Both the position numbers and the translations under genes were made by a program. This document shows, piece by piece, positions 6,599 through 56,969 of a stretch of 64,000 nt of DNA (positions within the stretch are counted from its first letter, which is position 1; each line of letters starts with the position of its first letter). The notes under the pieces are model-generated. The model ran no database searches. It had not been told where the DNA came from and saw only the letters and a program-made list of their open reading frames with translations. Source of the DNA: Bilabrum cf. latius (Eukaryota); contig OZ237767.1 in the NCBI GenBank assembly GCA_965178125.1, positions 186,001-250,000 on the forward strand. Direction: 5' to 3'.

Positions 6599-7004
6599 CA
6601 CGTCAAAAGGTTCTCTTTAAAGAGCGCCCAGGTCTTCAAGCAATTCCAGTTTCGCAAATTCGAGAGCGCAGCGGCTAGCTGTTGAATGCAGCGAGTATGA
6701 TTTTTAATACTTGTGCACGTTACTATGGTAAGAATGCAAAGGCTCTCAAGTCCCAGTTTACGACTCCTTTGACTCGATTATACTCCAAATTACAGTCTAT
6801 ATTGATAAACGCATATATTGTGTTACCTCTATCGCTGTGAAGGCGGCAGTTTGCTTGCTTGTGTGTTGTTTTGCAACTCAAGAACAAGTCGGCTGAACGA
6901 TGCCCCGAAAGGATGCGTCAGGAGGCTCTGGCGATCAAGATGTAAAGTAGCAGCTAAAAGCGCTAACCCTGGCTGTCCAGGGCATCTCTGAAAAGCTTGA
7001 AAGC

Positions 7005-12700: not shown

Positions 12701-15700
12701 CGGCACGTTCATGCCGCGGTCGTCCTCGATTGCCGTGTCCGAGGCCAGCCTGATGCGGATGGTCTCTACTCCCGTCGCTCGGTTCTCGAACGTTGGCGTG
12801 ATGACGTACACGGATGACGCTCCTGTTTTGCCACCTTGCTGCGCGGATACCTCCACCGACTCGAGCACGGCGGCAGGCTCGGTCTTTCCCCCTGGGCCGA
12901 ACGCCGCGCTTGCCACCAGGTCGATACTGAACGCCGCACCGTCCACTGCCTCTCCGTTTGAGCGGGATACAGGCCGGCTGAATGTCGCGGTGATGGTGTT
13001 GTCCTCCGAGATCGCAAATTGCACAGTAGATGTGGCTGGCACCTGCAGCACAACAGGCGCGGGCAGCGGAACCACTTCGGCGCCGCGCGCGTCGTAGAGG
13101 GGAGCCAGCGCCCCTGTGAGGCTAGCCGCGATGGTGTCGCCCTTCTAGATCTGACCCGAGTACGTCAGCTAGACCCTGCGCTGAGTCGGCGAAACCACCA
13201 CCAGCTGCTGTCCGGATACGCGGCCCGTCTTGCTGGTTAGCGCCACTTGGTACGCCTCTAGCTCGGGACCAGCCCCCTTGATCCTGGAAGCAGAGGCGCT
13301 CAGGGTGAAAAGCACGTCACCGGATGCCTCCATTTCGATCGACTCGAGCACAGGTGGGGCGATGAGAGTGCCGTTGAACGGTGCAGCTAAGGGACGGACT
13401 GCCAGGCCGGCCGCCGTGCCGATGCAGTTGGCCTTTACGTTTGCTGTCACTTGCTCGACTCCAGTCGGCAGCTGGCTGTCGCTGAAGCTTAGCCTGACGA
13501 CGTAGTTAGACGAGTCGAGCACGCTGTTGCTCACGAGCTTGGTCACCTGGCCCGACTCCGCAGCACCCCCGGCAACGCTCACCTCGAAGCAGTCGTCGCC
13601 GGGCTGCTGACCCCCCGGTATGCCGTACATTGCACCACTGAAGTCGTACAATACCTCGTTGTTGACCGTGAGAGACACCTGTACAGTCGGCTGCCTGCCC
13701 AGGCTTGTGAAGTCCTGCTGTGGGAGCACCGCGATGCCGTTCTCGTCCTCGACTGCGCCGGCCTTCATGCCGATCGTTACCTGCTCCTGTCCCGTTGCGC
13801 TCGCGCCCAGCTGCAAGACAATACGATACACCGAGTCGGACTGCTTGGTGACTACGATGGCTTCCAATGACACGTCCCCGCTTAGGCTGATATCGAAATC
13901 ATCTGCCACCAGCGTGGTCGAGGCAGATGAGCCGCCCGCCGCTGGCCGGCGCCGCACAGGTGCAGAAAACGTCGCTTGAATGCTGTTGTCACCCTGCGTC
14001 TCAAATTCCACGCGTACGGATGGGGTGAGATCCAGCTGCAGCGACTGGCTCTTTGCTGGCACACCAACGCCCCTGGCGTCAGAGATCGTACCCTCGACTA
14101 CGTTGACGAACAGCTGGTCTCCTTGCGCCACCATTGCAGTCAGCGCGGGCGTGACGGCCCACTGTGTTCCCTGCGATCCAGGGACCTCCTCCACGGAGAA
14201 ATGGACGGGAAGCGCTCCGTTGGCCCCACTCGCCGATACTAGGAAGGCTGTGTTGTCGAGATCTTCGCCTCCGCGGATAGAAACGGCGCTGTCGAAGGTG
14301 GCAGTGACGACCCGCGCTGCATCGATGCTGAACGAAACGCCAGTGACAACGTACAGGTTCTAACGGAACGGCGTGGGCAAGGTAGCAGCTTCCAGCGATG
14401 TGGCTTTGGACACCGCGTTGCTGTTCAGCGCCAAGTTGGCGGCCACCACCTCGTCCCCGTCGATGTTTCCGTTCAATTCCAGCACGAGCGTGTACTCCCT
14501 TCCGCCTTCGAAACCGCCGTCTCCGTCAGATACCTCCACGGAGAAATCACTGAGCGTGGCTGTGCCTCCAGACACGGATACGTTGAAGTCTGCCTTGGTG
14601 AGCGCACTGCTAGTCATCTCGTCTATGACCGTCTCCGTGTACCGCAGCACGATCTCATTCCTGAGGTTGAGTGACACCTCGAGCTGGGGCTGGGCCCGCA
14701 TCTGCAGCTGCAGGGGCTCTCTGTCCGGCGTGACTCCGAGCCCGTCGTTGTTCTCGAGTGCGCCATCCGCAATATTGACGACGTAGTACTCGTTTCCCGT
14801 GGCGAAGCCCTGCAGGTCCGGCACCAGGTTTACCCTGTTGAGCGAGGCAGAGAGGTGCTCGACCTCGAAGGGAGGATTCGTGATCAAGAGAGAACCTTCC
14901 GTGATGTTGTGGATCTCCAGCGTGAAGTCGGCGGGAGCCAAGGCCCGGCCGGCGGTAGAACGAACCGAATCTGTGAAGGAAAGCCTGACCTCGTTGTGGC
15001 CGATCACGCTGCCACTGAAGGTCACCTCGCCGTTGAGGACGGGGTCCTGCCTCAGGGGCTCTTGCGGCACATGCACCATCCTGGTGTCCCACACCGTCAT
15101 GTCGGTGACTCGGACCACGAGAATATACTGGGATGTAATTCGCATGTCTGCCGTAAACGACAAGCTCCAGAGCGAACCTTCTTCCGTGTTCTCTCCTGAT
15201 AGCACCGCGACCTGCACATCAGTGACGTTGAACATGTCACTGCTCACCTGGTCTTGGATCTGTACAAAGAAGTTTTCCGCCGTCAGAGGGCCACCATCGG
15301 ATTCGATGCTCCGGACCTTGCGCGTGAATTGCACACGAGCGCTGTTGTCCGGCTGAACCTCTACCGCGAACCGGGTGGGTGCGTACATCCGGGCCTACTT
15401 TGGTTCGGCCGGGGGAACCACGAGCGAGTCGTCGGACACGAGGTACGTAGTGTCCGCCAGCAGAGTAATCATCACTGTTTCCGACCCGTTTGCGTAGCCG
15501 TTGAACGGGATGTCCAGCATGTACACTCCGTCACCCTCGTGTGTCACGATGACTGGGTCTGCGCCCTCTCCCGCTGCAACAGTCAGTGTTCCACCCGTGA
15601 TGCTCACCCGGATTGAATCGCCTGTCAGGGTGCTGGCATTCACAGAATACACAGGTGCAGGGAACTGCAGTCGCACGCTGTTGTCGTTCGCCACCTCAAT

Positions 15701-18700
15701 CGAAAAGACGTCCTCTGCCTCGATATTTAGCTCATAGGCCGCTTCTGGCACGTACACGAAGAACCCGAGAGAGTCCACGATTGCGGCATCGTTCAGAATC
15801 AAGGAAAAAACCTCGTTTCCGTCTGGGATGCCTACGAATCGAGGTGTGATGATGTACGCGGCTTCAGCATCCTCGTCTGTCGACACAAGCTCAACGGAAA
15901 TGTCCCTAAGCGTGGCCTGACCCCCCGCTAGCGTCCCTGTGAACTCACTCGGTGAGAGCACGGAGTAATTCAAATTCCTCACATGCCTGGAGAAAGTGAC
16001 CCTCACCGCTTTGAGGTCCTAGGTGGTTGCGAACTGCACCGTGGCGGGTGCGTTCAAAGTGGCGGTGGCGGCGCTAGGGAGTGGTGGGACTACCTCCCCC
16101 GCAGGGTCAGCCGCGGCATTCTCTTTCAGGTTGACGGAAATCTGCTCTGTGCCATCCAGCTTGGTATCGCCGAAATTCAGCTTTAGGGTCCAGCGCGTGT
16201 TGGGCTGCGCATCCTTGTCAGTCGAGGGTGTGGCTACCACCGAGTCGAGCACGGCTGTGCCGCCCGACACTTCGACCTCGAAGCTATCCCCACTGAGCTC
16301 ACCAGAACTATCACCGACCGGAGTGACGGGGGCGCTGAATACCACATGCACGTCGTTGTTCTCCAGCACCAAGATCGTGAACGAGGTGGGTGCATCCAGC
16401 GGGATCTCGGTCGCCTCTTGCAGCGGCTCAATGTACCCGCCCACTGGGTCCTCTACCGATTCCTCTGCGATATGTACCGAAATGATTTCAGTGCCCACCA
16501 CGGCAGATGCGTATTCGATGGAAACCTCCCACATGTCTGCAGTCCCCGGCGCCCCCACTCGCGGGTTGTGAGCCATCGATGCATTGACCGTGGATCCAGC
16601 GATGGAGTTCGACGTGGTGTTAGTCAGGTCCAGCTGCAGGTCGCTTGCCTCGAGCATGACGGGCCTCGTAAAGTTCATGAGCACCTTGTTCCCAGGAAGC
16701 AACGATGCAACGAGCTTGGTGGGTTTAGGGAAGGTGACATCGACATCTTCGATTGCAGCCGGCACCTGGGCCCCCGTGGAGTCCTGCAGAGCCCCCTGCT
16801 GCACGTTAAACTGAATCAACTCGGAGCCCGTGCGGCTTCCACTCGTCACACTCGCAGAGACAAGGAAGGCGTCTCCCGCCGCGAGGCTGCCGGCACCACC
16901 CGGCGCTACAGAGATCTGGAACTCGAACGCGGCATCCGACCCACTCTGCTCCACAGTCGCTATGAAATCGCTCCAGCTAATGTCGGTCCCAGCTGCGATT
17001 GCGCTCGACACATTGCGATTGAACCGCACGATAAATTGCATCGAGTCGGGGACCGGAACCACGGTAAAGGCAGTGGTAGGTGCTAGGTCTAGCTCGGCTG
17101 CAGCAGTCAGGGCGCGAACCGGGCGGCCCACGCCATCGGTCACAGACGCCAGGACGAGGTTGACCTTCACGGTGTCGGCCTCCAGGATGATGCCGCTGAT
17201 GTCCAGTGCGATCTCGTAGGTGCGGCCCGATGAAATCGTTGTGATCTGCCGGTCAACCAGCGCAGCTGTGCTTCCCGACACGATCTCAACGGACATATCC
17301 CGTGCCCCCACCGTCGAGTCGTCCACGTCGCCGCTGAACGTCATCGTCACCACGTTAGCGTCGTCGATGCTGAACTGAGGCACCACGTCGGCCTTGAGCT
17401 GGGCGTGGATGGGTTGTGGCAGAGGCCGCAGCGGAATGTAGTCCGCTCCGGTGATTGTGCCCGGCGCGATGTTCAAGGTCACGTTCTCCCGTCCACTGGC
17501 CGCCGTCTGCGTCAGCACAGACACGAGGTACACTTTGCTGTTCTGGGGGTCCTGCGTCACGCTGATCCCGGTGATGTTGGCAGGCTGCACGAGCTCCTCG
17601 CCCGTGGCAGGCGCGTGACCCAGCTGCTCGTGCACGAAGGACGCAGCGGAGAGAGAGCCGCCGCTCTCGCTGACGTCATCCGTGAATTCGACTCGGAACC
17701 GATTCCGCTCGTCGAGCGCTGCTGTGAACCCGACCCGAGCCACGGTGGTTCCTTCCGCAGGTTCAGCCATCGCGGCCACAGGCACGCCTGACGTCGCAGA
17801 CATGGCTCCGGGCAGGATGTTTGCTGTGAACGCAACGGAGCCATCGGTGTCGTACACGGCCGGATCGATCGATACCACGTACGTGTTTGACTGCTGCTGG
17901 TCCCTTGTCACGATGACGTTGACCTCAGCATCCTTCCCGTTGGATGTGTCGGTGGCTGTGACGTTGAAGTGGGTCGCGTTGGGCTGCAGAGCACCCCCCG
18001 ACGGCTGTACCGTCCCTGTGAAGGCGAACGAGACCGAGTTTCCGCTGATCTGCGCGCTCTCTATGCCGATTTCTGCTTTGAGCACGCCTGCATTGATGCT
18101 CGAGGCCTAGGCAAGGACCGGGTCGCCTCCGCTCTGACTCACTATGACGTCATCTCCTGCCAGGTTGACCTGCACTGACTCGCTGCCGGAGGGAAGAGAC
18201 CCCGTGCCGAGGTCAATCCTGAAATAGAACGTCTTCGATTCCAAAGAGCTAACCAGCGAGGCAGATGCCGACGTGAAGCCGGGAACGGTGATGGTGAAAT
18301 CGGAGGTAGTCGCCTCTGCCTCCCCTCCCCCGGCCTGGATCACGGCTTCGGAAAACTCCACCTTCACGCGATTGTCGAACTCGACCGATGCAGTGAATGT
18401 GACGGGCACTGGTAGATCCAATGAGACTGCCTTGGAAGGCGCTCGCACGAAGCTGCCGTCCGAGACCGCCTTGATTGCAGTGTCTGACGGCAGCGTGAGA
18501 GAATAGGTCTGCGACTGCGAGTTGGACGCAGTTCCGGTTAGGCTGGGCGTGAGGATCCACTCGGCAGCGCTGGATCCTTGCGCGACCGAGAAGGAGTCCA
18601 GCGTTGCAGGCCCCGATGAGAGCGAGAGCGAGAAGCTCGTCACACCTAGGTCTCCGCCTGCCGCCGCCTCGACGGCTTCCGTGAACGTGACCTTGATCGA

Positions 18701-19261
18701 ACCATCGCTCTGTACATCCGCGCTCATGGATGCACTCGAGTACTCGATGTCTTCTTCTAGCACCAGATCAGTCGTTGGGAAATGGGAGCTGGATGAGGCA
18801 GCGAGGATGGTCCGGATTGTGATGGTGCCCTTTCCCGGAGTGGTTGGCGCATCCCACTCCAGAGCGACAGGATAAGACAGGCCGGAAAGCGAGCTTCGGT
18901 GCGTTACTGAACCATCACATCCCATTTTCTGCTGCATCTTCGTCTCGTCGGTCGGAGACACCTGGCCCACGTCACTGACGGCCGTTGAGCCCTGCGAGTT
19001 TCTGGCCCAAGCGAGCAAGCCCTTGAAATCAGCAGAACCGGAGGCCCTGTCGATACACACGTAGTATGAACTACCAGATTCATACTTTGTGACTCCTTGC
19101 GAACACTGCTGGTCGGAGGCAAGTGTCACGGTCCAGGTTGCTCCCGATGCCTACGTGGCTTTCCTGCTCGGCACAGACGAGTAGGTGCACGAGGGTGCGC
19201 CAGACGATCGGGCATGAGTGTGAGCGACAAGCCAGGCTACTAGAGATACCACCCGGAGCAT
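9767..19261 (-). CDS. Giant secreted/membrane ferric-chelate-reductase-like protein: signal peptide, Reeler, ~20 Ig-like repeats, DOMON, EGF-like, DOMON, cytochrome b561; ~3164 aa
   Basis: One frame from ATG 19261 (MLRVVSLVAWLVAHTHARSSGAPSC) to TAA 9767-9769, with in-frame TAG at 19151, 18107, 16019, 15395, 14360, 13169, 13145, 11978, 11909 and 9887. Reeler-like FKGLLAWAR..VTH..LEWDAP. About 100-aa beta repeats (xxVxFxxxV..LxxxDF). DOMON Met/His motifs (GKGMIGTHA..AYHGANRG). b561 histidines (VHGVLMGVSWG, FQLHR, YTHGVMG, WEVLHKSIG). Confidence 0.85.
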
Positions 19262-19948
19262 GGTTCGCCCGATTCCTGCGAAATGAACAAAAAGCAGGTT
19301 CGGCTTAATGATGTCATGACGACGGACTCGCCACGCGGCAGGGCATTGCAGCCAGATTGAAGTATGAGAACAGGTGCCTTACCAGATTGTTTCAAGAGGA
19401 TATGTATTGGTTGTTCTTGGGAACCGAACCAGACACGAGTCGGTTGCTGGGCACGTCTGCGAGAGCTCACATCCTGCACAGAGGCATCTGGTATACACAT
19501 GGATTGCGTGTACATATGGCGTCAACTGAAACTGCGTGGATATCTAAGCCAATTGCAGATAGATGGCCATGCAAGCATGTCTACTTGATTTAAACAATAT
19601 TTTGGACCTGATCTGTGGAAGGTAGTGTCAATGAAGTCTCTTATGGAGCACTATCACGGAAAATCGATATGGTTCACTAGTGGTGCACACGAATTCCATG
19701 GACACATCGAGCGTTGCCTACTTACTAGCCGCGAGCTACTCGGCAATGTAGTATTTATGCAATTGCTTCTGCGGAATTGGCTTTTGGTGTGTGGATAACC
19801 TGGTGGAGGCCATCGGAGCAAGTGCCTTGTCATAGTTTCATTTCTGAAAGTGCTCGCCCACCGTGCTGGTCGCAATCGGTTTGCCTCACACCGCTCGGCG
19901 TACACACAAAAATACCAGTACCAGCAACTAAGAGGAGCTGCTTGTAGT

Positions 19949-22900
19949 ATGGCAGCTTCTGGTGGCAGAGGTGGCACATCGCAACTAGTGCGTAGAAAGC
20001 AGCAACAGGCGCCGCAGCGGCAGCAAACAAGTGTGTCGCAGAGCAAAGCAATGCAGCAACTCCGTTCGGCTTTGAAGCTCCAGTCGAACCGAAAATTCGT
20101 CTTACGCAATGCGTACGAGTTTATGAACAATATTGCTGACAAGGTTCAGTACATCAAGAGGCGCTGCGAGCGGGCGAGCGTTGCATCAAACGAACTTTTG
20201 GAAACAAGCAAGGCATGCGCAAAACAACTGAAGCTGTCTCGTGATTCCATCGAATCGCATAATCAGATGCTTCTGACCGAGTTTTCGGATGCTGCAGAGG
20301 TGCTCGAAGATGTTGTGGGTGTCTCACGTGGAGCCGTACTTTCGGCAGAGGCGGCCATCGAAGACATCAATACCAAGGCATGGACGACCATTCGCAGTTA
20401 GAAGCTTTTGGACGTTCATGCGATCAGTAGTAGCGCTTTTCAGTCCATGCTTTCCGCCACAGGGCAACCGCACCAAGGAGAAGTGCAGTCAGTTGGCTCG
20501 CCGGAAGCTCAAGCTGCCAACATATCAGGATCAGCTACGTTCGTTCGAGCTGCAACTGACTCAGCCCAGTCCGTGTTGAAGGCTGCCAGCAGGTTGGCTG
20601 CGCTGGCAAGTGCTCATAAGGGCGACCAAGACGACACCGTACTGTCCAGGGCCCATCAGGCCGTCGCAGCACTGAAGGCCAAGGCAGCCGAGCTGACGCA
20701 GCGACACGGCAAGACCATCACGTGGCAGGACATCATCACGATCAGAGCAAACTAGCTGAGCCAGGCGGCAACGCACACCATTCAGAACAGCCGCGACGGA
20801 CGGGCTCCTAGCGCCCTGGTGGGTGCACTCAGCAAGGAGAAGCAGAGGCTGCTGGAGAGTGAGGAGGCAGTCAGACGGCTGCAGGCAAAGCTCGGCAAGC
20901 TGACGGAGGCTGCTGCTCGGACTGGTGCCGCTGCGCATGCCACCCGGCTCCGCCTCAAGAAAAACGCGGAGCTCGCAGCTAAGGCACTGCAGTCCATGGC
21001 AGCGGGCCTGCTGGCTGACCCCTCCCAGGCCGTCGCTGTGGTTGCCTCCTCTGTTGCTCACGCAGCCGGTGCTTCCGCTGAATCTGGATCCAAGGCATCA
21101 GGGGCATCCAATGCTGCTGCAGGACCTGTTGAGCTCGCAGCAGGAGCTGCCAGTCTGCTCCAGGAGTATCGTGCAGCGGCAGCGGCTTCCACCTAGCGCG
21201 TCGTACGGTGGCACAGGGAGCTTGTGAGCGACACTGACCTGAAGCGTAAAGCTACCGAACGAATCAAGCTGGTAGCTGATCTCCGCAGCATGCAGATGCG
21301 CGATCTACGGGGGAAATGGGTTGCAGCACGGCCCATGCTCTCCGCCGCTGTGCAGGCTGCGTCGTACCAGCTCGCCGCAAGCAAGGCCGTAGCGGACCCT
21401 GGCAGCATTTCAATCGCGCCTGATGGAGGCATTCTCAGCGGTGAGGAGCTGCAGACTGCACTGCATGCCTGTATGCAGTGCCTGGCCGTTCAGTCCGAGC
21501 TGAACGATGCGGTGCGGCTTCAGCAGGAGAGAACGAGCAAGGCGAGGCAGCTCATGCAGCAGTGCGCCGAGGCACTCGGTCAGATCAGCGACAGCCGGAG
21601 CTAGAGGAAGGCAGTCGCGGAGGAGGTGCAAGCACTGCAGAGTCGGGTCGAATCGGGCGCCAGCTATGCAGCGCTGCTAGAAGTTGCGGATCCCGGCTCC
21701 GTCGCATCTCATGACCTTGCCAAGCAATACGACGAGGCAGCCGCACAAGACATAGACGCAGGGCTGGCATCGTTCGCCATCCTGTGCAATCCCAGGGGAC
21801 GGGCCACTTTGGACGAGGAGTGGCTCGCTCGCGCGCTCAAGACGCCGACTCGTAGGGTCGGCATGCGGGCAGCGGCCGCTGGTCATGGTATTGACACTGG
21901 CTTCGCGCTCAAGGACGGCCTCGCCTCAACGTCTTCTCTCTTCATCGCCGTGACAGCCTTTGGGAAGCAGGCATTTGACGCCATGGCATCCGAAGAAACC
22001 CTACCATCGATCGTGCCGTCCGAGCTCAAGGCTGCAGCTGAGACCATGCGCGGCATGACCGCCTCGCTCAAATCTCACGTGAGTTAGATGTCCGCACGTA
22101 GCCTCGACCATCCGACCCGCACATCCTTCTTTTTCTCTGCACATTTCACCGCAAGGCCCATTGATTTCCGCGTTTACTTCGATGTTTGCAGATGCCCGCG
22201 GTGCAGCAAAGGCTCAACGCGAAGAGCAGGCCACTGGCCGCTGACGCAGCAGCTCAGGGTGGAGCCGGAGCCGGCCATGACTCAGGAGGCGCAGGCAGTG
22301 CCCTTGCGGACAAGCCAGAGGACAAGAGTGCTAAGGGTGCACTGTCTAGTGCAGCAGCCGAAGCTGCAGTAAAGAACGACCATCCCAAGCACGAAGTAGA
22401 CGCAGATGCTGCAGTCGACGACTGGCTGTTTGGCGGATCCAAGGGCACGGGCTCGTCATCCAAGTCCAGGGCAGCCGAGATATCCAAGGCAAGCTTCAGC
22501 GCTGACCCTGCAGGGACGAGTAGGAAGGTATTGGCCAAGAAGAAGCGGCAGCATCAGCTGAACTTTGACTTGGACAGCAGCTCGTCCGATGAGGAGGAGG
22601 ACAGCGACGAGGAGGAGCAGGAAGTCGCTGTCGGCAGTGCAGGGACATCCGGCAGGCGGACGACTACCAGAGGGCAAGCACCGAAAGCAAGGGCTGCATC
22701 GTCCGCAAATACGAAGAAGGCGCCATGGGCCCCAGCGGAGCAAGCAAAGATGCAGCGGGGCGGCGATGGAAGCGACAGCGACAGCAGCGACGATGGCTTT
22801 AACCTGTTCAGCGAGGAGGGGACAGGAGACTGGCAGCCAAGCTCGTCTGCCGGCATGACCACGCCGAGCTAGCCGAGCAAGTCCGCATCCTCGTCGTCCA

Positions 22901-23728: not shown

Positions 23729-26700
23729 ATGTCAGAAAACGGGTCAATTCGATAGCGTTTAGTGACATATTTATTCGATCGGTCCTCAAAACTTTCTGAG
23801 CGTGGTCTCGATCAGGTTGCATTGGCATATAGGCGAGCAGCATTGAGCATTCAAAAAGGAGAGACAAAGGATGGTACTTCCATAAGCGATGCTCTGTTTG
23901 GTTCCAGAGTCAACAAAATTAAAAATGTCGGCTAGAAGTTATCGATAGAGATTGCCAAATGGTTGTAGGAGAACTATGCGCCAGCTGTTCTAGTATCGCC
24001 TTCAGCGGCCATCGCTACTGATTTGGAGGAGCTCAACAAGCCCCCAAGCCGAAAGCGGAGGCGGGCAGAAACCAGTAACAGAAATGGTGGAATGCAAGAA
24101 CGCATTCCTGATTCTGGCGTGCCGGTTCAGGCAGATTCCCCAGCGGGTCTAGCTGGGCTGCTCGCTGCCTCGCATCGGCGAAGCCTTTCAAGTCCTACTT
24201 CGCGATTTGGAACGGGGCTGACAAGCCCAATTGCACGATTTGAGGTCAAACAAGCAGCACAGTAGACGATTTAGGCTGTAAGGCCTCACGCAGACTGGTC
24301 TCCCAGAGCTGGTGGCTTACTGGATACTGGGCGAGCACCTGCACGAACCAAGCCGGCAACCCCTCCCGCAGGCAATTCATCATCTGTGCAGCTGCCTTCC
24401 CGACTTATGGACAAGTTTCATGAGGAGGAAGAAATGATTGATCGGGAGGAAAGGAGGCTGCAATCAGAACGAGATAAGAAGGCTAGGATGGGCTACGAAG
24501 GCACCGCCGAGATGCTCGCTCAAGTTGACGCCGTGAAGATAAGGCACATGAGGCAGGTCCTCGAGGAAAAAATAGCAAAGGCTCGAGCTGCAGCATCTCG
24601 CATATCATCCAGTAGCAGCAATCGCGCAGTGTAGCCAGCCAAAGCCAGGCCGGCTCACGGACAGGCCGCAGCCGCCGGTGGAGCGGCTACCACTGGTGGT
24701 ACCGTGAGACCACGACGCAAGGGGTCATCCACAGTGACAATATCGCAACGGTCTCATGTTCCTGGCAGCAGCGCGCAGCACGGTCGGGCCGGTTCACCAC
24801 GAAGTCTCATCGCGATGGGCGCAGCAAGCTCCGCAAACGGCGCCGCGCAATCCAGTTTCCAGGGGAAGGCAAGACGAGCAGGAGATTCGGTGGCGACTCA
24901 TGGCATGGGGACTCACGCTGCAGTCACGCCCGTCCAGCCCTCAATGGGCTAGTCCCGCACCGGAGCTGCAGCAGGAGCAGGAGCAGGGCAGGGCAGCGGC
25001 ACAGGCGGCAAGCGAGGAGGCAGGAAGCGCAAGAGGCCGGCGACCTTTCAGGAGCTGTACAAGCCCATCATGGACTCTGCACTCGATGCAGCGGACGCTG
25101 TCAGGGCACAGCTCGGCATCGGCAAGCACGTGGGTGCTGGCAACAGACGCAAGGGCAGGATCAAGTACGGCTCGGCAGGGTATGCGATCATGCTGGTGCT
25201 GTACAGAGCTAGGATGGGATGGGGGTCCAATGGCTTCTACAGCGTCCCAGAAGAGTCCCTTCTGAAGCCTCGCATCGTAAAGCTCTCAGGGCAGTTCTAT
25301 CTCAGGCCAGAGAGGCTGGATGAAACGGATCGAGCCGCATCGGGTGCTTAGGCCTGGTACACTGGCTGGTCCACAATGAGCACACTCGTCACAGAGCATG
25401 GGTACGTGGAGTCCTACCAGCAGTCTCGGTAGAAACACTTCCGCTTGACTCCCATTGGGGTCGCTGTGGCCGAGGTGCTGTCGAAGGAGCACCCATTGGT
25501 GCAGCGGCTTCACAGCATGCATGAGGCAGGGGCAGAGCTCCCTAGGTCCATCGACGAGGCTCGGACCGAAGTTGCTGGCAGGTGGACTAGTGACGCGAGA
25601 GACGCTATCGGTACTGGATATAGTGCCAGTGCAGGTACGACGGCTGTTCCCAGCTAGGGCGTTGGCGTAGGTGCAGCTGCGGCGGAGCAGGCAAAGGTTA
25701 ATGCCCAACCGCCCGCATCGTCCTCATCCTCCAGCACGTATGCCGTTGCCGCTCCAGCGCCAGTGCTGGCTGGCATCCCGACGATGTCGAGCGACAATAG
25801 CAGCAGCAGCAGCAGCGATGATGATTCTGGGTCCGATTCGGACCTCGAAATCGTGGCTGCTCATCCTCCTCCCGGGCTGGTGCGCTCGTCGGACCTAGCT
25901 GGTCCATCTGCATTGAATCAGCTCAAAGCCTCATCCGGGAACGGAATCCAGTCCAAGACCGCCGCAGGAGGGCTGCAGAACAGCGTCGACCTGGAAGGAA
26001 GCGAGTCCGATGATTCGGATGACCAAAGCGGCGACGAGGACTCGTCCGACGACTGGGCCATTCCTGGAATCGGTCAAGCGAGCCTAAGTGGAGGCGGTAC
26101 AGTGCCGGCCATGCAGAGTGCAGGACAGCCGGCTGCTGGCTTGGCTGGTGCAAAGGGCGTCGGCTTGGCCGCATAGTAGGCTGCTGTTTCGCAGAATGAC
26201 TCTCACGGTGGCATTGGGGCAGGACGTGCCGAAGGATTGGGATAGCTGGCGAGGCGTGCAGCAGCAGGTGGACACGGGGCTGCAATCGGGCCATAGGGAG
26301 TCAACGATACCGTTGAATCATTCCGCTCTCAGCCCACTGGTTCTCCGCCCGTTGCAGAGCATCGCATGTAGAAGAGGCTGAAGTCAGCTGCTCATGGGGA
26401 CGATGATGATCATGAGGACGAGGACAAAAAAGAGGCTGTGGTACGGGTGATCGACCTCTCCAGTGACTCTGAAGGCGATAATGAAGCAAATACAGGACAT
26501 CAAGGAGCCATTGCAGCGAGACATGGATCCAAAGCAGGGGCGATGACTCTGCTGCAGCTAGCTGCACTCAAGAGGACGGAAGCCGCCTCTCGTGGGCCAA
26601 TGGTGTCGAATGCATGGGCCATCAGCAGCACAACCACCGGAATGCACGCCAGGATTGCGCAACTGAAATTGGATGCTGACTAGTCCTTGCCCGGGCCTGT

Positions 26701-26815
26701 TTCCTTAGCTGGATCTTCGAATCATGCATGGCAGCACATTTGGTTTGCTGCGCCACTCGGTCCGTGCCCTGTGCAGCACGCACAAACAGGAGGTGCATCT
26801 CAGGCTGTCGAGACC

Positions 26816-26849
<34 letters not shown>

Positions 26850-27976
26850 TTAAGATGCCTTCGACTTCGACCGACTCCAAACCAGAGGTGCATTTCAGGC
26901 CGGGGGAATGCGTGGACCCTTAGCTGTGGGCAGAGGATACCTGCGTTGGTGTGAAAGCCGGCGCAGCAGCAGTAGAGAGCCACTGCAGTTCCCACGCATC
27001 GGCTGGGTCCGCATCAGCCGCCGCCGTTCAGGGCGCACTCGACACGAGGCCTCGAGTGGTCGTCCTGGTCGCCCACAACGAACCCAAGCGAACGTTCGAT
27101 GCCTTGCTGCGAGCAGGCGTGCCGATCGAGAGCGCGACTATCCCGCCCGGCGGGGGCGACCTCCTGTGGGCGGTGAGGGTGGGCCAGCAGCTCTACATGA
27201 CGGGGCACGCAGCGGAGAGGAAGACTGCAGAGGACCTGACGGGCTCTATCATGTCGGGATCAGGCAAGAGCAGGTACCTGGAGTAGAAGTACTACCTGTG
27301 GAGGAGCGGGCTGAGGAGACTCATGTACATTCTTGAAGGGGACACGGACAAGAGGCAGATAGTCGGTGGGTCGGTGAATACCGCGCTGATGGCGCTGTCG
27401 GCAGATGCCTCCACTGTGTCTGAAGGCTTCGCTGTGTGGAGAACGGAGGACCTCGCGCACACTGGTAGAGTCGTGGCCCGTCTAACGGAAGCCATCCAAG
27501 CGGTGGCTATAGGCAGAGAGGGCCACCTCAGGAAAGAGCAGGAGTGGAGAAGGTATGACCGGACTTTCGAAGCGTGGTGCACTGGTCTGAAGGCAATCAG
27601 ACAGAACCAACACTCACTTGGTATGGTCTCGCGCCGCATGCTGGGCCAGATTGGGGGTCTCATGAGCAGGCAGATCGATACGATCTTGCACTCGTACGGG
27701 ACATACGGGGCACTGGTGCATGCGCTTAGGCGCAGGTTTAACCACCCGCGGGAGGACTCTACTGGAGGATAGGTTGGAACGGATCATGCAATCAGTGGAA
27801 GAGCAGCTGGTGGGCTATCAGCATTCATTTCGAGGGCGGAAAGGATGACGGCTGCGGGACAGCTGCTCATGGTGTTGGTGGTGCCGCCAGGAGGTCAAAA
27901 ACTGACCGATCTTAGCGCGAACAAAGTGGTCACTGCAGTGCTTGGTGTGCACGAATCCAATGAAGGATCTGACTGA
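23729..27976 (+). CDS. MUS81: Crossover-junction endonuclease MUS81-like, ~1415 aa
   Basis: One frame from ATG 23729 to TGA 27974-27976 with ~18 in-frame TAG. N-terminal HhH-like region (LAYRRAALSIQK..KIKNVG*KLS), winged helix (YGSAGYAIMLVLY..WYTGWSTMSTLV..FRLTPIG), ERCC4 nuclease (GDLLW..ERKTAEDL.GSI..RYLE*K..SGLRRLMYILEG), C-terminal MLGQIGGL. Confidence 0.85.
26818..26847 (+). repeat. (CAG/AGC)n microsatellite encoding poly-Ser in MUS81
   Basis: About 10 consecutive CAG units; the MUS81 frame reads AGC. Confidence 0.9.
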
Positions 27977-28038: not shown

Positions 28039-28467
28039 TCACCCATTCCACCCGATTGCTGACTCTAGCAGCTTCACGCACTCGTCGTGTCCTCCCAGCC
28101 TGGCAGCTTCCAGAGGCCCTACCATGCGAACGCTGTGCTTAACACGCCCTTTCATCGAAAGCCCGCCAGCTAGCGTGCCCAGCCTCAGCCTCTTTGACAT
28201 GCCTTTTCCAACAGCAAAGAGCACGTCTGCGTGCACACCGAGTCCTTGTCCCAGGTCCAGTACGCGCAGTGTTCGGTTCGTGCGCAAGGCCTCAGCCACA
28301 GCGAGCTACGACTAGACATGTGACAGCTTCATCACCCTGACGCTACCAGACTAGATTTTCATCGCGCAAAGTGCTACCCGAGCCGCATACTTGTCGGGTG
28401 GTCGACACACATTCTGCCAGAACTCCCTGATAGGAGCCTTAGATTCACTCAACGACTCCAAGAACTT
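28039..28467 (-). CDS. Short ORF or gene remnant with LRR (RNI-like) and ankyrin-like fragments
   Basis: AVAEALRTNRTLRVLDLG (LRR-like) and PLEAARLGGHDECVKLL (ankyrin-like). The frame is open 28467-28039 through TAG at 28351, 28312 and 28306; start unclear (ATG at 28362 or 28332). Confidence 0.4.
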
Positions 28468-33286: not shown

Positions 33287-33878
33287 CCAGTCGCACCTTC
33301 GGATCAGTCATCGTATAACTACGTAGGTCACTTACCTGGTTTAGATCGTGCCAACTTCTGGAGCAAATCCGTAGGACGACTGGTCAGACCAGTAGCACTT
33401 TGCATACTTTCCGTTCCGATGGCAATTATGATACAATAAACGGCCAAATGCCGGCAGTGGCAAGTACTGCTGACCTCTCTAATCGGTTAGTAGCAAGCTT
33501 GTGTTACCTGTAACTGAAGTTGTACGTGGATTGAGCATGGGTTCAGCAATCACTCTGCAGCGCACGATCCTGCCGCTTTTTTTCTTGGCGAGGATAGATA
33601 TCATATCCCGGCACAACATACACGAATCGGGAGCGCATTGTCAGCAGTATTCCTTCAGAAGGTCTTGCAATCTCTGCACACTCGGCAGCTTGTAGCTTGG
33701 CACAGCAAGAACACGATCAACCAAAGTGTCGGTCACGTGCACCAAGAACCGGTCTGGACATGTAGGCTAAAGACTGCATATCTTCATTAGCGAGAAGCAA
33801 TCCTCGTGAGAACAGCTGGTAATATGGCATTTTCGTCTGGTTTGTGAGCGGTCGCCGTATCATGTGCTCTGCATCCGG

Positions 33879-36800
33879 ATGCTGCACTACTCTTCTGCCG
33901 CAGGCTGTTTCATGACAATACTGGAATTTCTTCCAACATCAGATGCGTGCAGGCTCAAACGATCCGACCGTGATATAAATGCCTTTCTTTTGAGCCCTAT
34001 GGCAAGCAAGTATTGGAAGATGAGCATCCGAAGAGCGCGATTCGAGCAGGACACGGCCGATGCTCCGCTGGCATACTCAATTGCAAAGGAGCTGGAGGGT
34101 ATTGATGAAGCCATTCATATGGTGGATGTTCTGATTGCACTGCGGGAAGGTCTTAGAAAAACCAGCATCACGAATGCAAAGCCCTCGACCGAAACCTCAT
34201 TAGACTAGGTCGCAAGCCTTGGTCGCATCATAATGGGCCACCACAATTGCAGCTAGCATGAAGTCGCCGCAGTGTCGAACGAGGGTCCGTCTTCCGGAGC
34301 AGGTCGAGATGGCCGCGCCGTGACCATGCGAGACACACACGCAGCAGAAAACGCCTCGCGCGAAGTGGCAGCCGGCAGGGGAGGGAGACATGCCCCTTCT
34401 GCTGCTTCAAGCACCCTGCAGGACACTGAGCTCCAACGGGCCCACAGCTACTGGCAGATCAATGCAAGCGATGATGCTTCCGCTTCCAACAGTGGTACGA
34501 GTCACCAAATCCGTGGGGCCGCTGCAGGGAGCGCCCGCATCCTGGGCGACGACTCTCATGCCATGCTCAATTCTGAAGCCGACGCAGCTGCGAATATGGC
34601 GACCCGTGCGCAAAACCCGGATACGGATGTCACGTTTGGCAATTTTCAGTCATTGGCATCGGGAACGGCAGCGGTCAGCACATTTTCCGAAGGCCAGGTA
34701 TTGAGGACGCTGCGTCGCTGCTGTGCGCAGGCCGAGCTTCTGCCGCACAAGAACAAGCAGCTCAAGCTCACGCACAGGTACCAGGTGCTTAGCACGCTTG
34801 CAGAGACACCGATCTAGGTCCGTTAGATTGCAGCACTGGCCCGGTTGGTACGGCTAGGTGGCGTGACTCTGGGCCAGGTGCACATCGGCAGGTAGATCTC
34901 GATGGGATCTCGCGAGGGTTTGCTGCCGTGGCTATCAAAACCAACTGCGACCGGCATCGCGCTTCGAATGCACGCCATAAGCCCGGAGCATGTTGCTACG
35001 CAAGCCATGGAAGACATGCGAAGGATAAGCATCGAGCACATGAGGCAGCACCCCCCTTCGCACCTGCGTCCGGGGCAGCTAGAGGATGAGCTGGATATGC
35101 TCCGGAGGGCGCAGCGAGGAGTGGCGGCACTAGTAGGAGCAGGCAAACCACTCACTACTCTGCCCAGCGACCACTACACTGCAAAAGAGGTTCTAGAAAG
35201 GGAAAAGGTGGGGAGAACTCCGCTTCACCCCGGCGAGAAGGCGATTTATCCAACGAAGCGGCACAACCGGGAGAGTATGGAGCACTCGTCACAGTGGGTC
35301 ACACCTATAGGAGCCGGTCCCCTCTCGGGGATGAGCCTGAGCGAAATCACAGACGCTGTGCTGCTGCACACGATTCTCTTCATCAGCAAGCATGTGAAGA
35401 TGCTTCGGGGAAGGTGGGGATGGCGGGATACGAACCAAGTCGACTACCTGCCAACCGGCTTCGACTCGTACCTGTTCAAACACCGCGCTCTGGCACGATC
35501 TATGGGGACGACGCCGCCCGCTTGGACGACGTCAAAGCTCAAAATGAGGAGAGAACCAGGCGTGCCAAACAGGGACGGCACTGCAGCCATGAGGGAAAGC
35601 GCAACTCGTGCCCGCCAGCCTCAGTCGCAAGGCAGTGCATCCATTCACAGCCAAGCTCGCCAGACGGCGGTTCAAAGTACCAGTGATGACGCTGCAGGTA
35701 GAACCCGGCCTCCTCTGCCTCCGATTCATGAACTCAATGCTCGGCCTAGAGCCGCATCAATGTCTGCCAGCGTGCCAGAGCCTTTGCCTGCGTAGTAGCC
35801 TGCGTCGGCTATCCCTTCTGCACATGAGTCTGCGAGTCTCCCTGCCGTGCCATCCACTGTGTTGACTGGTTCCACCGACTTGAAGCAGCGCGGGGTTTCC
35901 ATTAGTGGCGGCTGCCGCGCACCGGTACTGGTCTAGGGCATGGGCCCGTTCGTACAAACTACTCACCAGACTGGAGCAAGCAAGGCCACGCCCCATGGTC
36001 TTGGATAGGACAAAACTGGAGCAAGCAAGGCCACGCCCCATGGTCTTGGATAGGACAAAACTGGAGCAAGCAAGGCCACGCCCCATGGTCTTGGATAGGA
36101 CAAAACTGGAGCAAGCAAGGCCACGCCCCATGGTCTTGGATAGGACAAAACTGTCAACAGGGGAATCAGAACCTCTAGAACGCCAAGGCGACTTTCCAGG
36201 ATATCTATTCATGTATCCGACCAACATAATGACCCACAGCGCTGGCTGGATCCAGCCAAACCTGCGCCCCTGCCCCGACGAGGCATCGCGGCAGCGGGCA
36301 GCATCTTCCTGCACCACACCGCGATGGAGACAGCGCTGAAGGGCCTGCCTCGAGAGGAAAGCAATAGCGACGATAGCGATGACGAGTACAGCCGGGGTCC
36401 AATACAAGAGAATCCTGCTTATTTGGCCGGATATGTGCCCAATACCACCCCTGGTCCCATTCCTGGCCTTGACTGGTGGGTCCCTTTGCAGGTGTACAGG
36501 ATGCGCATGTACGGATGGGCACTCGTGCTGATGGCAGTGTTCGTTGGGGGACTTTTCTATGGCGTGTATCCGTATGGCTGTGTGCAGGCAGTCACAGCGC
36601 ATAGGCTGGCTGGAGAAGGCGTCCGCGACTTCCGAAACGAAACTTGGTCTATATCGAGACCTAGCGTTTTGCGGGATGCTGCGAATGCTTGCGGTGTGTC
36701 GGTGTCGTATGTGCTTCCGACCATCGGTGGAGCCGACAAAGAGCAGGCAGCCAATGTCGTGTTCAACATTCTGAGGTGGTGGAACTCATCAGTCTGGTTC

Positions 36801-39326
36801 CTCTGGCTTATTTTCCCGGTTGCTCTTTGGCTTGAAACGAAGTTGGCCATTCCAAACACAGTTCCTGCGTAGGCGGTTCAAGGCTTGGAACATGTGAGTA
36901 GGCAAGGGCCTCCAGGTAACCCTCGATACGAGTGGTAGCTGCCAATGGTGTGCAAGAACTCAAACACGGCCGCATGCGGATTTGAGGTAGACAATATCGG
37001 CATGAACATGTTTTGCAACAGGTTTGCAGGGTGCATGTGGGACACGGACATTTATCCCTCGACAGTCACTAGCACCGTGCCATTGCGGGTAGTATCGACC
37101 GACTTTTACCAAAAACGTGCATCTCTCTTGCTGCACAGGCCAGGGCAGTATGCCCTGTTTTGCGTGTCAGCCACGGCTGGGTTTCTCATCGTTGGGATAT
37201 GCGGCATGCTTTTGCTTATCACTCTGACACTCGACTCGGCCGTAGCGTTGAGCATTCGGGGCAATACCAACGTGTTTCATGATAATGCAGGCAGCGACGG
37301 GCTGCCTGTGCTACGCAACGGTGGTATATCAATCACAGTCATTGGTACCTTTTTGTTGTTGGCACTTTTTTTCTTGTTGGTAGCTCCGTCAAACGTCCTT
37401 AACACCATCATGGCATTCGAAGATGTGTACAAAGAGCGGCGGAAGAGTCTTCGAAAGAGCGGCCTTGACATTCCCCGGTCCGGGTGGTGGTGCTGGGACG
37501 ACCATGTGACGGAAATATCCATCTTCTGTAGCGCCCACATCGGAGTTCTACTTCCAGTTCTTGTATTGGGTGCGATGATTGTTATGGCAAGTGCTAGGCC
37601 TGACAACACGGACGTGCTCGGCACTTCATGGAACGTCATTGGTAGTCTTTGCACGGTGTACTTGGGCCTTTGGATCTCTGGGTACCTCTGTGCGACTGGC
37701 CGCTCGTGCTGTGCGGCCACTAAATTTGAGTTGACATGTTGTGGATACATGGAGAACGTCGGGAACGTCAGCAATCCAGTGTTGCGAGTGCCGGTGCTGC
37801 CAATTCTAATGACTGCTTTCTTTGCGTATTATCCAATTGTGGCCACCGCATTCGCTGCGTTTTACTCGCATGGCAGGGCAGTGGCAATCCACTGCTGGGC
37901 AGTGTACCTGCTTGGGTACTTGCTGGCTGGTGCTGCGGGTTACTTTTACCATTCTGAGATTGGTATCCTCGAGGCAGTCAAACTAGCGACTGGGAGCTAT
38001 TTTCAGGGGTATTAGTTTGGTACAGCAGGCACTAATACTGCAGGAGGTGCCAATGCTGCTGTTGCAGGTGCCAATGCTGCTGTTGCAGGTGCCAATGCTG
38101 CTGTTGCAGGTGCCAATGCTGCTGTTGCAGGTGGCAATGCTGCTGTTGCAGGTGGCAATGCTGCTGTTGCAGGTGGCAATGCTGCTGTTGCAGGTGGCAA
38201 TGCTGCTGTTGCAGGCGGCAATGCTGCTGCAGGCGGCAATGTTCGGGCCCGGGCAAATACACTAGACGATCTAGACGATATCGGGGCAATTTACGTTGAT
38301 GACGAAGAGGATACTTCGCGCCTGACAGTGAAGCAGCTGGCGCTATCCCGCATTCGATAGCGGATGAGGTGCGACGCCCCTGATCTTGAAGCCTAGATCG
38401 GGCCTGTCGAAGACATGGTCAAGGAAGCTAGGGAAATTGTGCTAGGTGCCCACAAGATACGATGGCAAGGGCCCCCAGTCGACGGCTCAGACGTGCATGA
38501 CGCGCTGATGAACCTCCTGATGGACCTCCTGCATGCCACCAAGCAGCTGTGCCGTGAGCACATGCAGGGCATTTTCCACGGCGTCGGGTACACGGCCCCC
38601 GAGCAGGAAAATCTCTTCGATGAGTGGGTCACGTCCAGGGTGGAGTGCATCGAGTGGGCGAGGGCATTGGCGGTGGTGATGGCTGACAAGGAGCTGGCAG
38701 GTCTGCCCGGTGGCACGGAGCGCCAACGCAAGCTCGCTGCTTCCACAAAGAACATGCGTGGATTAGCCACCAGACTCAGGGTACGAGCTCTTGGTATGTG
38801 GACTGACGACGACTCTGGCAAAGCGACAGCTGTTGTGGATAACGAGTGGGCCGATAACGATGAGGAGCCAGTAACTCGCAAAAATGAGGCAGCGAACCAC
38901 CTGCAGCTAGCGACGGCTAGCCATTGGCAGAGGGTAGCATTTGTGGGAATGCGGTGGAGGGAGATTCAGGGCACTATTGCTGACACCGGCAAATTCTGGT
39001 GGCTTCAGTCGGCCAAAGCTAGAGAGGAGGTCGAGTTCAAGGACGGCCTATCGCTAGAGCTACCGCATCCACGGATCGCAAGGCAGGGGTGGAGACGTGC
39101 TAGCATTCTAGAGATACCCTCTGAGGTGCGTGACACCGACCCCCACAGCCGTGTGATTGGCTGGAAAGAAGAGGAAGAAGGCGAATTCTCTGGTGGCCTT
39201 GGGCGAAAACTGGGTGGGAGTTTGTCCACAGCAGCCTGCAGGCCAGTCCACTACGTCCCGTTCCATGTTGCCATGGAACGCATGATGCACGTACTAGGAA
39301 GTTGGTCTGAGTAGTCGAGTACGTGA
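33879..39326 (+). CDS. F-box-like N-terminus plus multi-pass membrane protein, paralog A, ~1815 aa
   Basis: First ATG (33879) after an in-frame TGA at 33807; one frame through many TAG to TGA 39324-39326. N-terminal CFMTILEFLPTSDACRLKRSDRDINAFL resembles an F-box. Several hydrophobic helices at 36500-38000. Confidence 0.75.
35970..36152 (+). repeat. Coding tandem repeat, 45 bp x4 (TGASKATPHGLG*DK)
   Basis: Four identical copies of ACTGGAGCAAGCAAGGCCACGCCCCATGGTCTTGGATAGGACAAA. Confidence 0.95.
38040..38242 (+). repeat. Coding tandem repeat, 21 bp x ~9 (AGANAAV / AGGNAAV)
   Basis: GCAGGTG(C/G)CAATGCTGCTGTT units; GCC variants come first, then GGC variants. Confidence 0.95.
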
Positions 39327-56691: not shown

Positions 56692-56969
56692 CGGTACCTC
56701 GGATAAAGATACGCTCCCTCGCCTTGCGCGCCGCTTCTATCTAGTTCCAGATACGTCAGTGGCCATACCTGAGGGGGTGAAGCCGACCTCAATAGGGTGC
56801 TTGGCGATGCACAAGAGACAACCGCTAGGAGGCGCCGCGCCACTCGTCACATTAGATCTATTAGTATCTGTTTTGCGGAACCTCAGGAGGTGAAACACCA
56901 TTATTGATTGCGAGTTACAGCTGGACCGCCAGGATAATAAGAGCAACGCTACTTCGTTGAATTCATTGA

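What the first reader, a model, noticed from the sequence alone, without database searches (positions are those of the whole stretch)
27260..27340. Best single diagnostic site: MUS81 'RYLE-TAG-K' equals the conserved EQK motif
TAG at 27284-27286 falls inside the ERCC4 nuclease domain at the Gln of the MUS81 'DGR(F/Y)xEQK' motif, and is followed in frame by KYYLWRSGLRRLMYILEG. This identifies the amino acid as Gln rather than Glu, Leu, Trp or Tyr.
Basis: partly seen in the sequence, partly recalled or inferred. Interest (0 to 1): 0.8.

Follow-up and report, generated by a model that had tools for sequence, protein, structure and literature searches.

The report
Marine flagellate reads UAG as glutamine
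This single-celled eukaryote, a distant relative of the flagellate Cafeteria, reads the normal stop signal UAG as the amino acid glutamine across its nuclear genes while UAA and UGA still end proteins, a rare kind of genetic code change that I found no report of in this branch of life.

Summary
Confirmed, and it holds genome-wide. The TAG at 27284-27286 lies in frame in a 1415-codon MUS81 gene with 19 TAGs; its column is Gln in 149 of 152 aligned homolog rows. In ten dynein heavy chains, TAG falls on Gln columns 20 of 34 times, like CAG/CAA (306 of 581); Gln beats Glu by 53 log units. Rab switch-II and DEAD Q-motif glutamines are often TAG. All 34 gene ends with a recognisable C-terminus use TGA (26) or TAA (8), none TAG. 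One tRNA gene with a CUA anticodon was found, and eRF1 has an altered stop-reading domain. Trees and best hits place the organism in Bicosoecida. The code type (UAG=Gln, NCBI table 15) is known from Iotanema and three ciliates; my ten paper searches found no stramenopile case. Two differences: UGA, not UAA, is the main stop, and the tRNA's stems resemble tRNA-Tyr. No protein-level proof.

The parts
27284..27286 (+). In-frame TAG at the conserved Gln of the MUS81 nuclease domain
27104..27484 (+). ERCC4 nuclease domain (PF02732) that holds the TAG
   Evidence: residues 81-207 of P0001
23729..27976 (+). MUS81 gene read as one ORF, 1415 codons: 19 TAG, 37 CAG, 16 CAA, ends TGA
25172..25477 (+). 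MUS81-like winged helix (PF21136, weak, below the curated cut-off), with 2 in-frame TAG
25349..26179 (+). Four in-frame TAGs (25349, 25655, 26174, 26177) covered with no differences by contigs of run X1
22079..22191 (+). 113-base GT..AG intron of the upstream gene, skipped by one contig of run X1 (shows that X1 holds spliced RNA)
6897..9014 (+). MBOAT acyltransferase ORF, 2 in-frame TAG, ends TGA
9767..19378 (-). 3203-codon ORF, 10 in-frame TAG, ends TAA
28490..33286 (-). 1598-codon ORF, 11 in-frame TAG, ends TGA
33810..39326 (+). 1838-codon ORF, 18 in-frame TAG, ends TGA
39640..57042 (-). 5800-codon open frame with a myosin head (PF00063), 21 in-frame TAG, ends TGA
56970..62051 (+). 1693-codon ORF, 8 in-frame TAG, ends TAA

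Best explanation
The nuclear genome of this bicosoecid stramenopile uses UAG as a third glutamine codon, while UAA and UGA remain stops (the assignments of NCBI table 15), with UGA the commoner stop. Shown from sequence: in-frame TAG throughout conserved genes, its position at Gln columns, gene ends at TGA/TAA only, and an intact tRNA gene with a CUA anticodon. Inferred: that this tRNA is charged with Gln by GlnRS and decodes UAG but not UAA (C34 cannot pair with A), and that the altered eRF1 N-domain (TAV for TAS before NIKS, Gln at human Leu69, Ser at human Asn129, and, across an inferred splice junction, changes at Gly29 and Asn30) reads UAG poorly.
For: Focal column Q in 149 of 152 rows. 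Dynein: 10 genes, 46,227 codons, 135 TAG; at columns at least 70% conserved TAG meets Q 20 of 34, CAG/CAA 306 of 581 (Fisher p 0.60), GAG/GAA 19 of 778; log-likelihood against Gln: Glu -53, Lys -70, Ser -73, Leu -109, Tyr -117, Trp -164; all 61 sense codons return their standard meaning. Paralog columns: DEAD Q 8 of 9, Ras Q 8 of 9. Stops inside 175 Pfam matches in the genome, my count from the tables: 109 TAG, 3 TGA, 1 TAA. Gene ends with a recognisable C-terminus: 34 of 34 at TGA or TAA. tRNA(CUA) at G000:C23:907607-907679, 69.8 bits, second best of 48 tRNA matches. Run X1 skips a GT..AG intron and keeps TAGs unchanged.
Against: No peptide data. One eRF1 TAG lies in a Leu column (83 of 87) and one actin TAG opposite Lys in two paralogs. 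Glu columns are somewhat over-represented at TAG sites (7 of 34 against 53 of 581 for CAG/CAA, p 0.04 uncorrected). The CUA tRNA is no closer to the genome's Gln tRNAs (43-44 of 73) than to Glu (44) and is closest to Tyr (50). None of the eRF1 changes is specific: Gln69 occurs in 4 of 87 homologs, TAVNIKS in Euplotes, which keeps UAG as stop (PMC4695839), and N30A had no effect in yeast (PMC4381064).
Confidence: 0.95

Rival explanations
1. UAG has a dual meaning: Gln inside genes but still a stop at the end of some genes, as in Condylostoma or Blastocrithidia.
For: eRF1 keeps GTS, Glu55, NIKS, Ser70 and YxCxxxF, so it may still see UAG. Three Ras-like tails with a TAG have no prenylation motif to fix their end.
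Against: 0 of 34 recognisable ends use TAG, an upper bound near 9% of genes. TAG occurs 19 codons before the end of one dynein, ahead of its conserved terminal motif, and ahead of a CaaX box in one Rab. The two EEVD-TAG pattern hits are internal or out of frame.
Confidence: 0.08
2. UAG is read as Gln mostly but ambiguously, with some Glu or Tyr put in by a tRNA of mixed identity.
For: Mild Glu excess at TAG columns; the tRNA has a C1-G72 pair and Tyr-like stems, and C38 like this genome's tRNA-Glu.
Against: The tRNA lacks A73 and G34, two of the eukaryotic Tyr determinants in PMC9976931; 0 of 34 conserved TAG columns are Tyr. The Glu excess is weak and could come from GAG-to-TAG substitutions.
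Confidence: 0.06
3. TAG is not read as such: it is edited to CAG in mRNA, spliced out, or is an assembly error or pseudogene mark.
For: No listed RNA contig piece spans 27284-27286; the tool labels X1 'RNA? (probably DNA)', so its MUS81 pieces could be DNA.
Against: Runs X3 and X6 cover the codon with no difference (they may be the source of the assembly) and X1, coded as another study, shows no difference at four other MUS81 TAGs. A dedicated tRNA(CUA) exists. Essential single-copy genes such as eRF1 carry TAG. Errors or decay would give TGA and TAA as well (109 against 3 and 1).
Confidence: 0.02
4. UAG encodes another single amino acid (Glu, Leu, Ser, Tyr or pyrrolysine).
For: The eRF1 Leu69 site; ARAGORN labels any CUA tRNA 'Pyl'.
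Against: Every alternative scores 53 or more log units below Gln; TAG fills the catalytic Gln of Rabs and the Q-motif of DEAD helicases; the tRNA has no long variable arm.
Confidence: 0.01

Closest known systems
Iotanema spirale nuclear code (PMC5304391; passages read)
   Same: UAG=Gln, UAA and UGA stops, no sign of dual meaning.
   Different: Unrelated lineage (Fornicata). UAA is its main stop (104 against 15 UGA); here UGA leads (50 of 59 ends read). Its eRF1 has T32G in GTS; here GTS is intact. Its tRNA(CUA) was predicted, not found.
Hartmannula sinica, Trochilia petrani and Protocruzia tuzeti (PMC11687900; passages and Discussion read)
   Same: UAG=Gln with UAA kept as stop (translation table 15); 58-70% of placed UAG at conserved Gln, against 59% here.
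   Different: Ciliates; 86.9-98.3% of genes end in UAA; no suppressor tRNA gene was detected in H. sinica or T. petrani.
Rhizarian exLh and TARA phyllopharyngean MAGs (UAG=Leu); Scotinosphaera (UAG=Ser) (PMC5304391, PMC11687900)
   Same: UAG alone reassigned; exLh also has a changed eRF1 position 69 (L69A).
   Different: Different amino acid; Leu and Ser are rejected here.
UAR=Gln codes (many ciliates, ulvophytes, hexamitins, Streblomastix, Amoeboaphelidium; listed in PMC11687900)
   Same: UAG read as Gln.
   Different: There UAA is Gln too; here TAA ends genes and 1 TAA lies inside 175 Pfam matches.
Cafeteria roenbergensis/burkhardae (nearest named relative)
   Same: Best named hit for MUS81 (cluster at 36%), eRF1 (69%) and dynein (60%); mitochondrial tRNA with UCA anticodon as in Cafeteria and Cafileria, where UGA=Trp.
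   Different: Its genome paper names a non-standard code only for the mitochondrion (passages); its eRF1 has TASNIKS and Leu69.

Membership tests
UAG=Gln, UAA/UGA=stop nuclear code (table 15 type) | In-frame TAG common in intact conserved genes | tested here: met
   135 TAG in 46,227 dynein codons; 91 in 18,098 window codons; 109 inside 175 Pfam matches
UAG=Gln, UAA/UGA=stop nuclear code (table 15 type) | TAG at conserved Gln positions as often as CAG/CAA | tested here: met
   20 of 34 against 306 of 581, p 0.60; 149 of 152 at the focal site
UAG=Gln, UAA/UGA=stop nuclear code (table 15 type) | TAA and TGA end genes and are not sense | tested here: met
   34 of 34 recognisable ends (26 TGA, 8 TAA); frames above 3000 codons free of both
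UAG=Gln, UAA/UGA=stop nuclear code (table 15 type) | TAG never used as a stop | tested here: inconclusive
   0 of 34 is consistent but leaves up to about 9% of genes
UAG=Gln, UAA/UGA=stop nuclear code (table 15 type) | A nuclear tRNA gene with CUA anticodon | tested here: met
   One gene on contig C23; no second copy by DNA search or by a loose pattern (2 other true tRNAs among its 23 hits were Arg)
UAG=Gln, UAA/UGA=stop nuclear code (table 15 type) | That tRNA is charged with Gln; Gln found in the proteins | not testable with these tools
   Needs aminoacylation assays and proteomics
UAG=Gln, UAA/UGA=stop nuclear code (table 15 type) | tRNA(CUA) derived from tRNA-Gln(CUG), as predicted in PMC5304391 | tested here: inconclusive
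   Acceptor plus anticodon stems match Tyr(GUA) 20 of 24, Gln(CUG) 12 of 24; D-stem and G73 match Gln(UUG); a phage tRNA-Gln matches positions 7-66 at 82%
UAG=Gln, UAA/UGA=stop nuclear code (table 15 type) | eRF1 with reduced UAG recognition | tested here: inconclusive
   Several changes at near-invariant N-domain positions; none specific; function not testable here
UAR=Gln code (table 6) | TAA is also Gln | tested here: not met
   TAA ends eRF1, 2 dyneins, 4 Rabs and 1 actin; 1 TAA inside 175 Pfam matches
Bicosoecida | Groups with Cafeteria and Bicosoecida sp. in protein trees | tested here: met
   eRF1 tree (28 rows, 265 columns): in a clade of 14 with support 96/94 whose named members are Cafeteria, Bicosoecida sp. 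CB-2014 and one record labelled Symbiodinium; place inside the clade unresolved. Single gene only.
MUS81 / ERCC4 nuclease | ERCC4 domain with ERK..D motif, winged helix upstream | tested here: met
   PF02732 over cut-off, PF21136 weak, PDB hits all MUS81

The most novel reading that the evidence does not exclude
This is the first stop-codon reassignment in a stramenopile nuclear genome; it arose in a GC-rich genome where UGA, not UAA, is the main stop; and the tRNA that reads UAG descends from tRNA-Tyr(GUA) by a one-base anticodon change followed by a switch of identity to glutamine (A73 to G, Gln-type D-arm), a natural case of the Tyr-amber-to-Gln drift seen in laboratory suppressors. Lineage novelty alone I put at about 0.7; the Tyr origin at about 0.4.
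Probability: 0.3. Interest if true: 0.88.

Novelty: new member of a known kind. Interest (0 to 1): 0.72.

Why it matters
Nuclear codes that split UAG from UAA are rare: the 2024 survey I read lists Iotanema, one rhizarian, Scotinosphaera and a few ciliates. A case in Bicosoecida would add a major eukaryote group, in a 48.6 Mb assembly that, unlike the other UAG=Gln cases I read about, yields both the tRNA gene and the eRF1 gene, next to a well-studied relative (Cafeteria). That makes testable how eRF1 drops UAG while keeping UAA and UGA, and where the decoding tRNA came from. In practice, standard-code gene calling breaks most long genes of this lineage: the 100%-identical eRF1 record in the protein collection is a 225-residue piece. 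Viruses of this host would also have to cope with the code.

Tried and rejected
Word-index search with the MUS81 domain found nothing; the exhaustive search did. First tRNA pattern missed the gene because it assumed a purine at position 38; its 3 hits were not tRNAs. Scan of metagenome contigs with the eRF1 N-domain gave 79 loci, none above 73% identity, so no DNA of a close relative: whether relatives share the code is untested. No RNA holder on record was listed for the stretch; X1 is an RNA guess. X2 was laid but covers little. The EEVD-stop pattern was noise (9 hits, control 14). A pattern for further tRNA-Tyr genes was too loose (83 hits, control 161) and was not followed up. Horizontal origin of the tRNA: phage and bacterial CUA tRNAs picked by a pattern from it reach 47-52 of 73 identity, partly by construction, and have a different acceptor stem; not supported, not excluded. 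Actin paralog test was uninformative (1 site). Earlier findings of this scan: nothing shown in 4 look-ups. The tRNA set is incomplete (63 of 780 candidates scored; no His, Leu or Trp gene seen), which limits the origin comparison.

Full report
OBSERVATION. With TAG read through, it belongs to one ORF, 23729-27976 (+), 1415 codons, with 19 TAG, 37 CAG, 16 CAA and a final TGA. Pfam gives ERCC4 (38.8 bits, cut-off 24) and a weak MUS81 winged helix. The four distinct PDB sequences hit are all MUS81 and have Gln opposite the TAG. I searched with X at the site, so Gln was not built into the query. Of 165 homologs, the best 150 were returned; 152 aligned stretches have a residue in the column: Q 149, T 1, A 1, L 1. 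The E before it is variable (74 of 151).

IS IT GENERAL? Yes. Nine long ORFs of the window hold 91 TAG, 497 CAG and 141 CAA in 18,098 codons and end in TGA (7) or TAA (2) (two include intron sequence). Across six Pfam searches of the genome (175 matches), stops inside matches number 109 TAG, 3 TGA and 1 TAA, by my count from the tables.

WHICH AMINO ACID? I took 10 dynein heavy chain genes (20 stretches, 46,227 codons, 135 TAG) from 28 AAA_6 matches and aligned them to 63 of 120 external homologs. 92 TAG sites had enough coverage and 34 lay in columns at least 70% conserved: Q 20, E 7, seven others once each. CAG/CAA gave Q in 306 of 581 (Fisher p 0.60 against TAG); GAG/GAA gave Q in 19 of 778 (p 1e-20). 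All 61 sense codons returned their standard meaning. Log-likelihood relative to Gln: Glu -53, Lys -70, Ser -73, Leu -109, Tyr -117, Trp -164. In paralog alignments TAG met Gln columns 8 of 9 times in DEAD helicases (27 of 30 loci used), three of them at the invariant Q-motif Gln, and 8 of 9 times in Ras-family GTPases. The switch-II Gln is TAG in 9 motifs, 5 of them with no intron nearby, against CAG 7 (one gene counted twice) and CAA 6. Against: Glu columns are mildly enriched at TAG (7 of 34 against 53 of 581, p 0.04 uncorrected), one actin TAG faces Lys, and one of the two eRF1 TAGs faces Leu in 83 of 87 homologs while the other faces Gln in 83 of 86. The eRF1 case shows that one conserved site can mislead; Gln does occur there in 4 of 87.

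STOPS. Reading through TAG, 59 gene ends (26 Ras, 8 actin-like, 14 proteasome, 10 dynein, eRF1) fall on TGA 50 times and TAA 9 times. For 34 the C-terminus is recognisable (20 prenylation motifs, 3 actins, 10 dyneins, eRF1; the motifs are recalled knowledge): 26 TGA, 8 TAA, no TAG. One Rab needs readthrough of TAG to reach its CaaX box. A dual role for UAG is bounded at about 9% of genes, not excluded.

RNA AND ASSEMBLY. Runs X3 and X6 match the window over the codon but may be its source. Run X1, coded as a different study, has one contig that skips a GT..AG intron at 22079-22191, so it holds spliced RNA although the tool guessed DNA. Its listed pieces cover MUS81 TAGs at 25349, 25655, 26174 and 26177 with no differences. 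No listed X1 piece spans 27284. All 22 in-frame GT..AG pairs around the codon would delete conserved residues.

MACHINERY. One tRNA gene with anticodon CUA lies at G000:C23:907607-907679 (-), 69.8 bits, a full cloverleaf, about 10 kb from a Rab gene with an in-frame TAG. No second copy was found; intron-bearing tRNAs would be missed. Its ancestry is odd. Overall it is closest to the genome's tRNA-Tyr(GUA) (50 of 73) rather than Gln(CUG) 44, Glu(CUC) 44 or Gln(UUG) 43, though 14 of 503 unrelated pairs reach 50. Acceptor plus anticodon stems match Tyr at 20 of 24, the highest of 417 different-isotype pairs (mean 8.2, SD 3.1), and both have C1-G72 and a 5-base variable loop; D-stem (8 of 8) and G73 match Gln(UUG). 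I chose the stems after seeing the match, paired bases are not independent, and the tRNA set is incomplete. A phage tRNA-Gln also matches positions 7-66 at 82%. PMC9976931 (passages) lists A73, C1-G72, G34, U35 for eukaryotic Tyr, of which this tRNA has lost A73 and G34; it gives no eukaryotic Gln set, and lists G73, G2-C71, G10, U35, A37 among bacterial Gln elements, all present here. PMC1483225 (passages) shows that yeast amber tRNA-Tyr variants can be weakly charged with Gln by E. coli GlnRS. A Tyr origin is therefore a live lead, not a result.

eRF1 (one gene found, G000:C35; the other PF03463 hits look like pelota, my reading) keeps GTS, NIKS, Ser70 and YxCxxxF but has Val at human position 60 (1 of 87 homologs), Gln at 69, Ser at 129 (2 of 87) and, if my splice junction is right, Ala29 and Asp30 where Gly29 is invariant. 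L69A raises readthrough, slightly more at UAG, and N30A has no effect (PMC4381064, passages). Yeast N126S, the equivalent of N129S, was enriched in a screen for UAG readthrough (PMC12440015, passages). TAVNIKS also occurs in Euplotes (PMC4695839, passages). Environmental relatives of unknown code share Gln69 and Ser129. The mechanism at eRF1 is inferred only.

ORGANISM. 48.6 Mb, 111 contigs. Best named hits are Cafeteria roenbergensis for MUS81, eRF1 and dynein, at 36%, 69% and 60%. An eRF1 tree puts it in a clade (96/94) with Cafeteria and Bicosoecida sp. CB-2014. The 38.4 kb mitochondrial contig has a tRNA with UCA anticodon, as in bicosoecids with mitochondrial UGA=Trp. So: Bicosoecida, Bigyra, Stramenopiles (lineage), not Cafeteria itself, genus not determined. 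A second 18S gene on small contig C95 shows another eukaryote in the assembly; the window's contig C33 is 808 kb and carries three dynein genes with in-frame TAG, so the window does not look like part of that minor component.

WHAT IS KNOWN. UAG=Gln with UAA as stop is reported for Iotanema spirale (PMC5304391, passages), Hartmannula sinica, Trochilia petrani and Protocruzia tuzeti (PMC11687900, passages and Discussion); it does not extend to Iotanema's free-living relatives (PMC9161772, passages). In those where counts are given UAA is the main stop; here UGA is. Neither paper mentions stramenopiles. Searches for a bicosoecid or stramenopile case listed none. Term searches found no nuclear code change in papers on Symbiomonas, Halocafeteria, Cafeteria, Cafileria, a stramenopile overview, or a 2025 paper on nuclear codes. 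The library lacks most subscription journals, I read no supplements, and a database record may already carry table 15, so absence from print is not shown.

VERDICT. The code type is known; the lineage appears new (about 0.7), with UGA-dominated stops and a tRNA of possibly Tyr origin as added points. Novelty: new member of a known kind. Interest 0.72.

Noticed in passing
G000:C95:6099-7900 (L222): A second 18S rRNA gene, 83% and 77% identical over two blocks to the tandem 18S on C12: another eukaryote is in the assembly. It looks dinoflagellate-like to me from memory; untested.
   Followed up: partly
G000:C111 (L083-L086): 38,401-base mitochondrial genome, 21-27% GC; ARAGORN found only 10 tRNAs, one with UCA anticodon; all 19 long ORFs whose end was seen stop at TAA under table 4.
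   Followed up: partly
G000:C16:642463-642535 (L217): tRNA-like gene with good A and B boxes but no U33 and a mismatched anticodon stem; called Asn(GTT) only at a relaxed threshold.
   Followed up: partly
L031, L043, L045 and others: Nuclear tRNAs are unusually divergent: Ile has anticodon GAT rather than AAT, the two Gln tRNAs share only 41 positions, several T-loops read ATC.
   Followed up: no
window genes and dynein loci: TAG share of Gln codons varies widely: 26% in MUS81 and the 1838-codon ORF (GC3 0.59), 4-13% in genes with GC3 near 0.7, 6% in dyneins, none inside the two best actin matches. May reflect avoidance in highly expressed genes.
   Followed up: partly
window 28490-33286 (-) and 33810-39326 (+): Two divergently oriented paralogous ORFs (1598 and 1838 codons) with shared blocks and hydrophobic segments; the 1838-codon one has no Pfam family over cut-off and holds a tandem repeat whose units each carry an in-frame TAG.
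   Followed up: no
window 39640-57042 (-): A 5800-codon open frame starting with a myosin head; the long tail was not examined.
   Followed up: no
window 9767-19378 (-): 3203-codon ORF of repeated beta-rich units with a C-terminal membrane region; probably a large surface protein; not scanned.
   Followed up: no
window 3-1957 (+) and 2546-6616 (-): Two converging kinase genes share a nearly identical N-lobe stretch, suggesting a recent partial duplication or conversion.
   Followed up: no
window about 28060-28200: A short dispersed repeat just downstream of MUS81: many contigs of all four runs align here.
   Followed up: no
P0248: An unnamed eRF1 (60% identical) has both Val60 and Gln69, like this organism's; its source and code are unknown.
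   Followed up: partly
P0166: An eRF1 labelled Symbiodinium groups with bicosoecid sequences in the tree, perhaps a contaminant in that record.
   Followed up: no
L312-L335: Large phage contigs and three bacterial MAG contigs matched the pattern; many carry CUA tRNAs with a similar D-arm and anticodon loop.
   Followed up: partly
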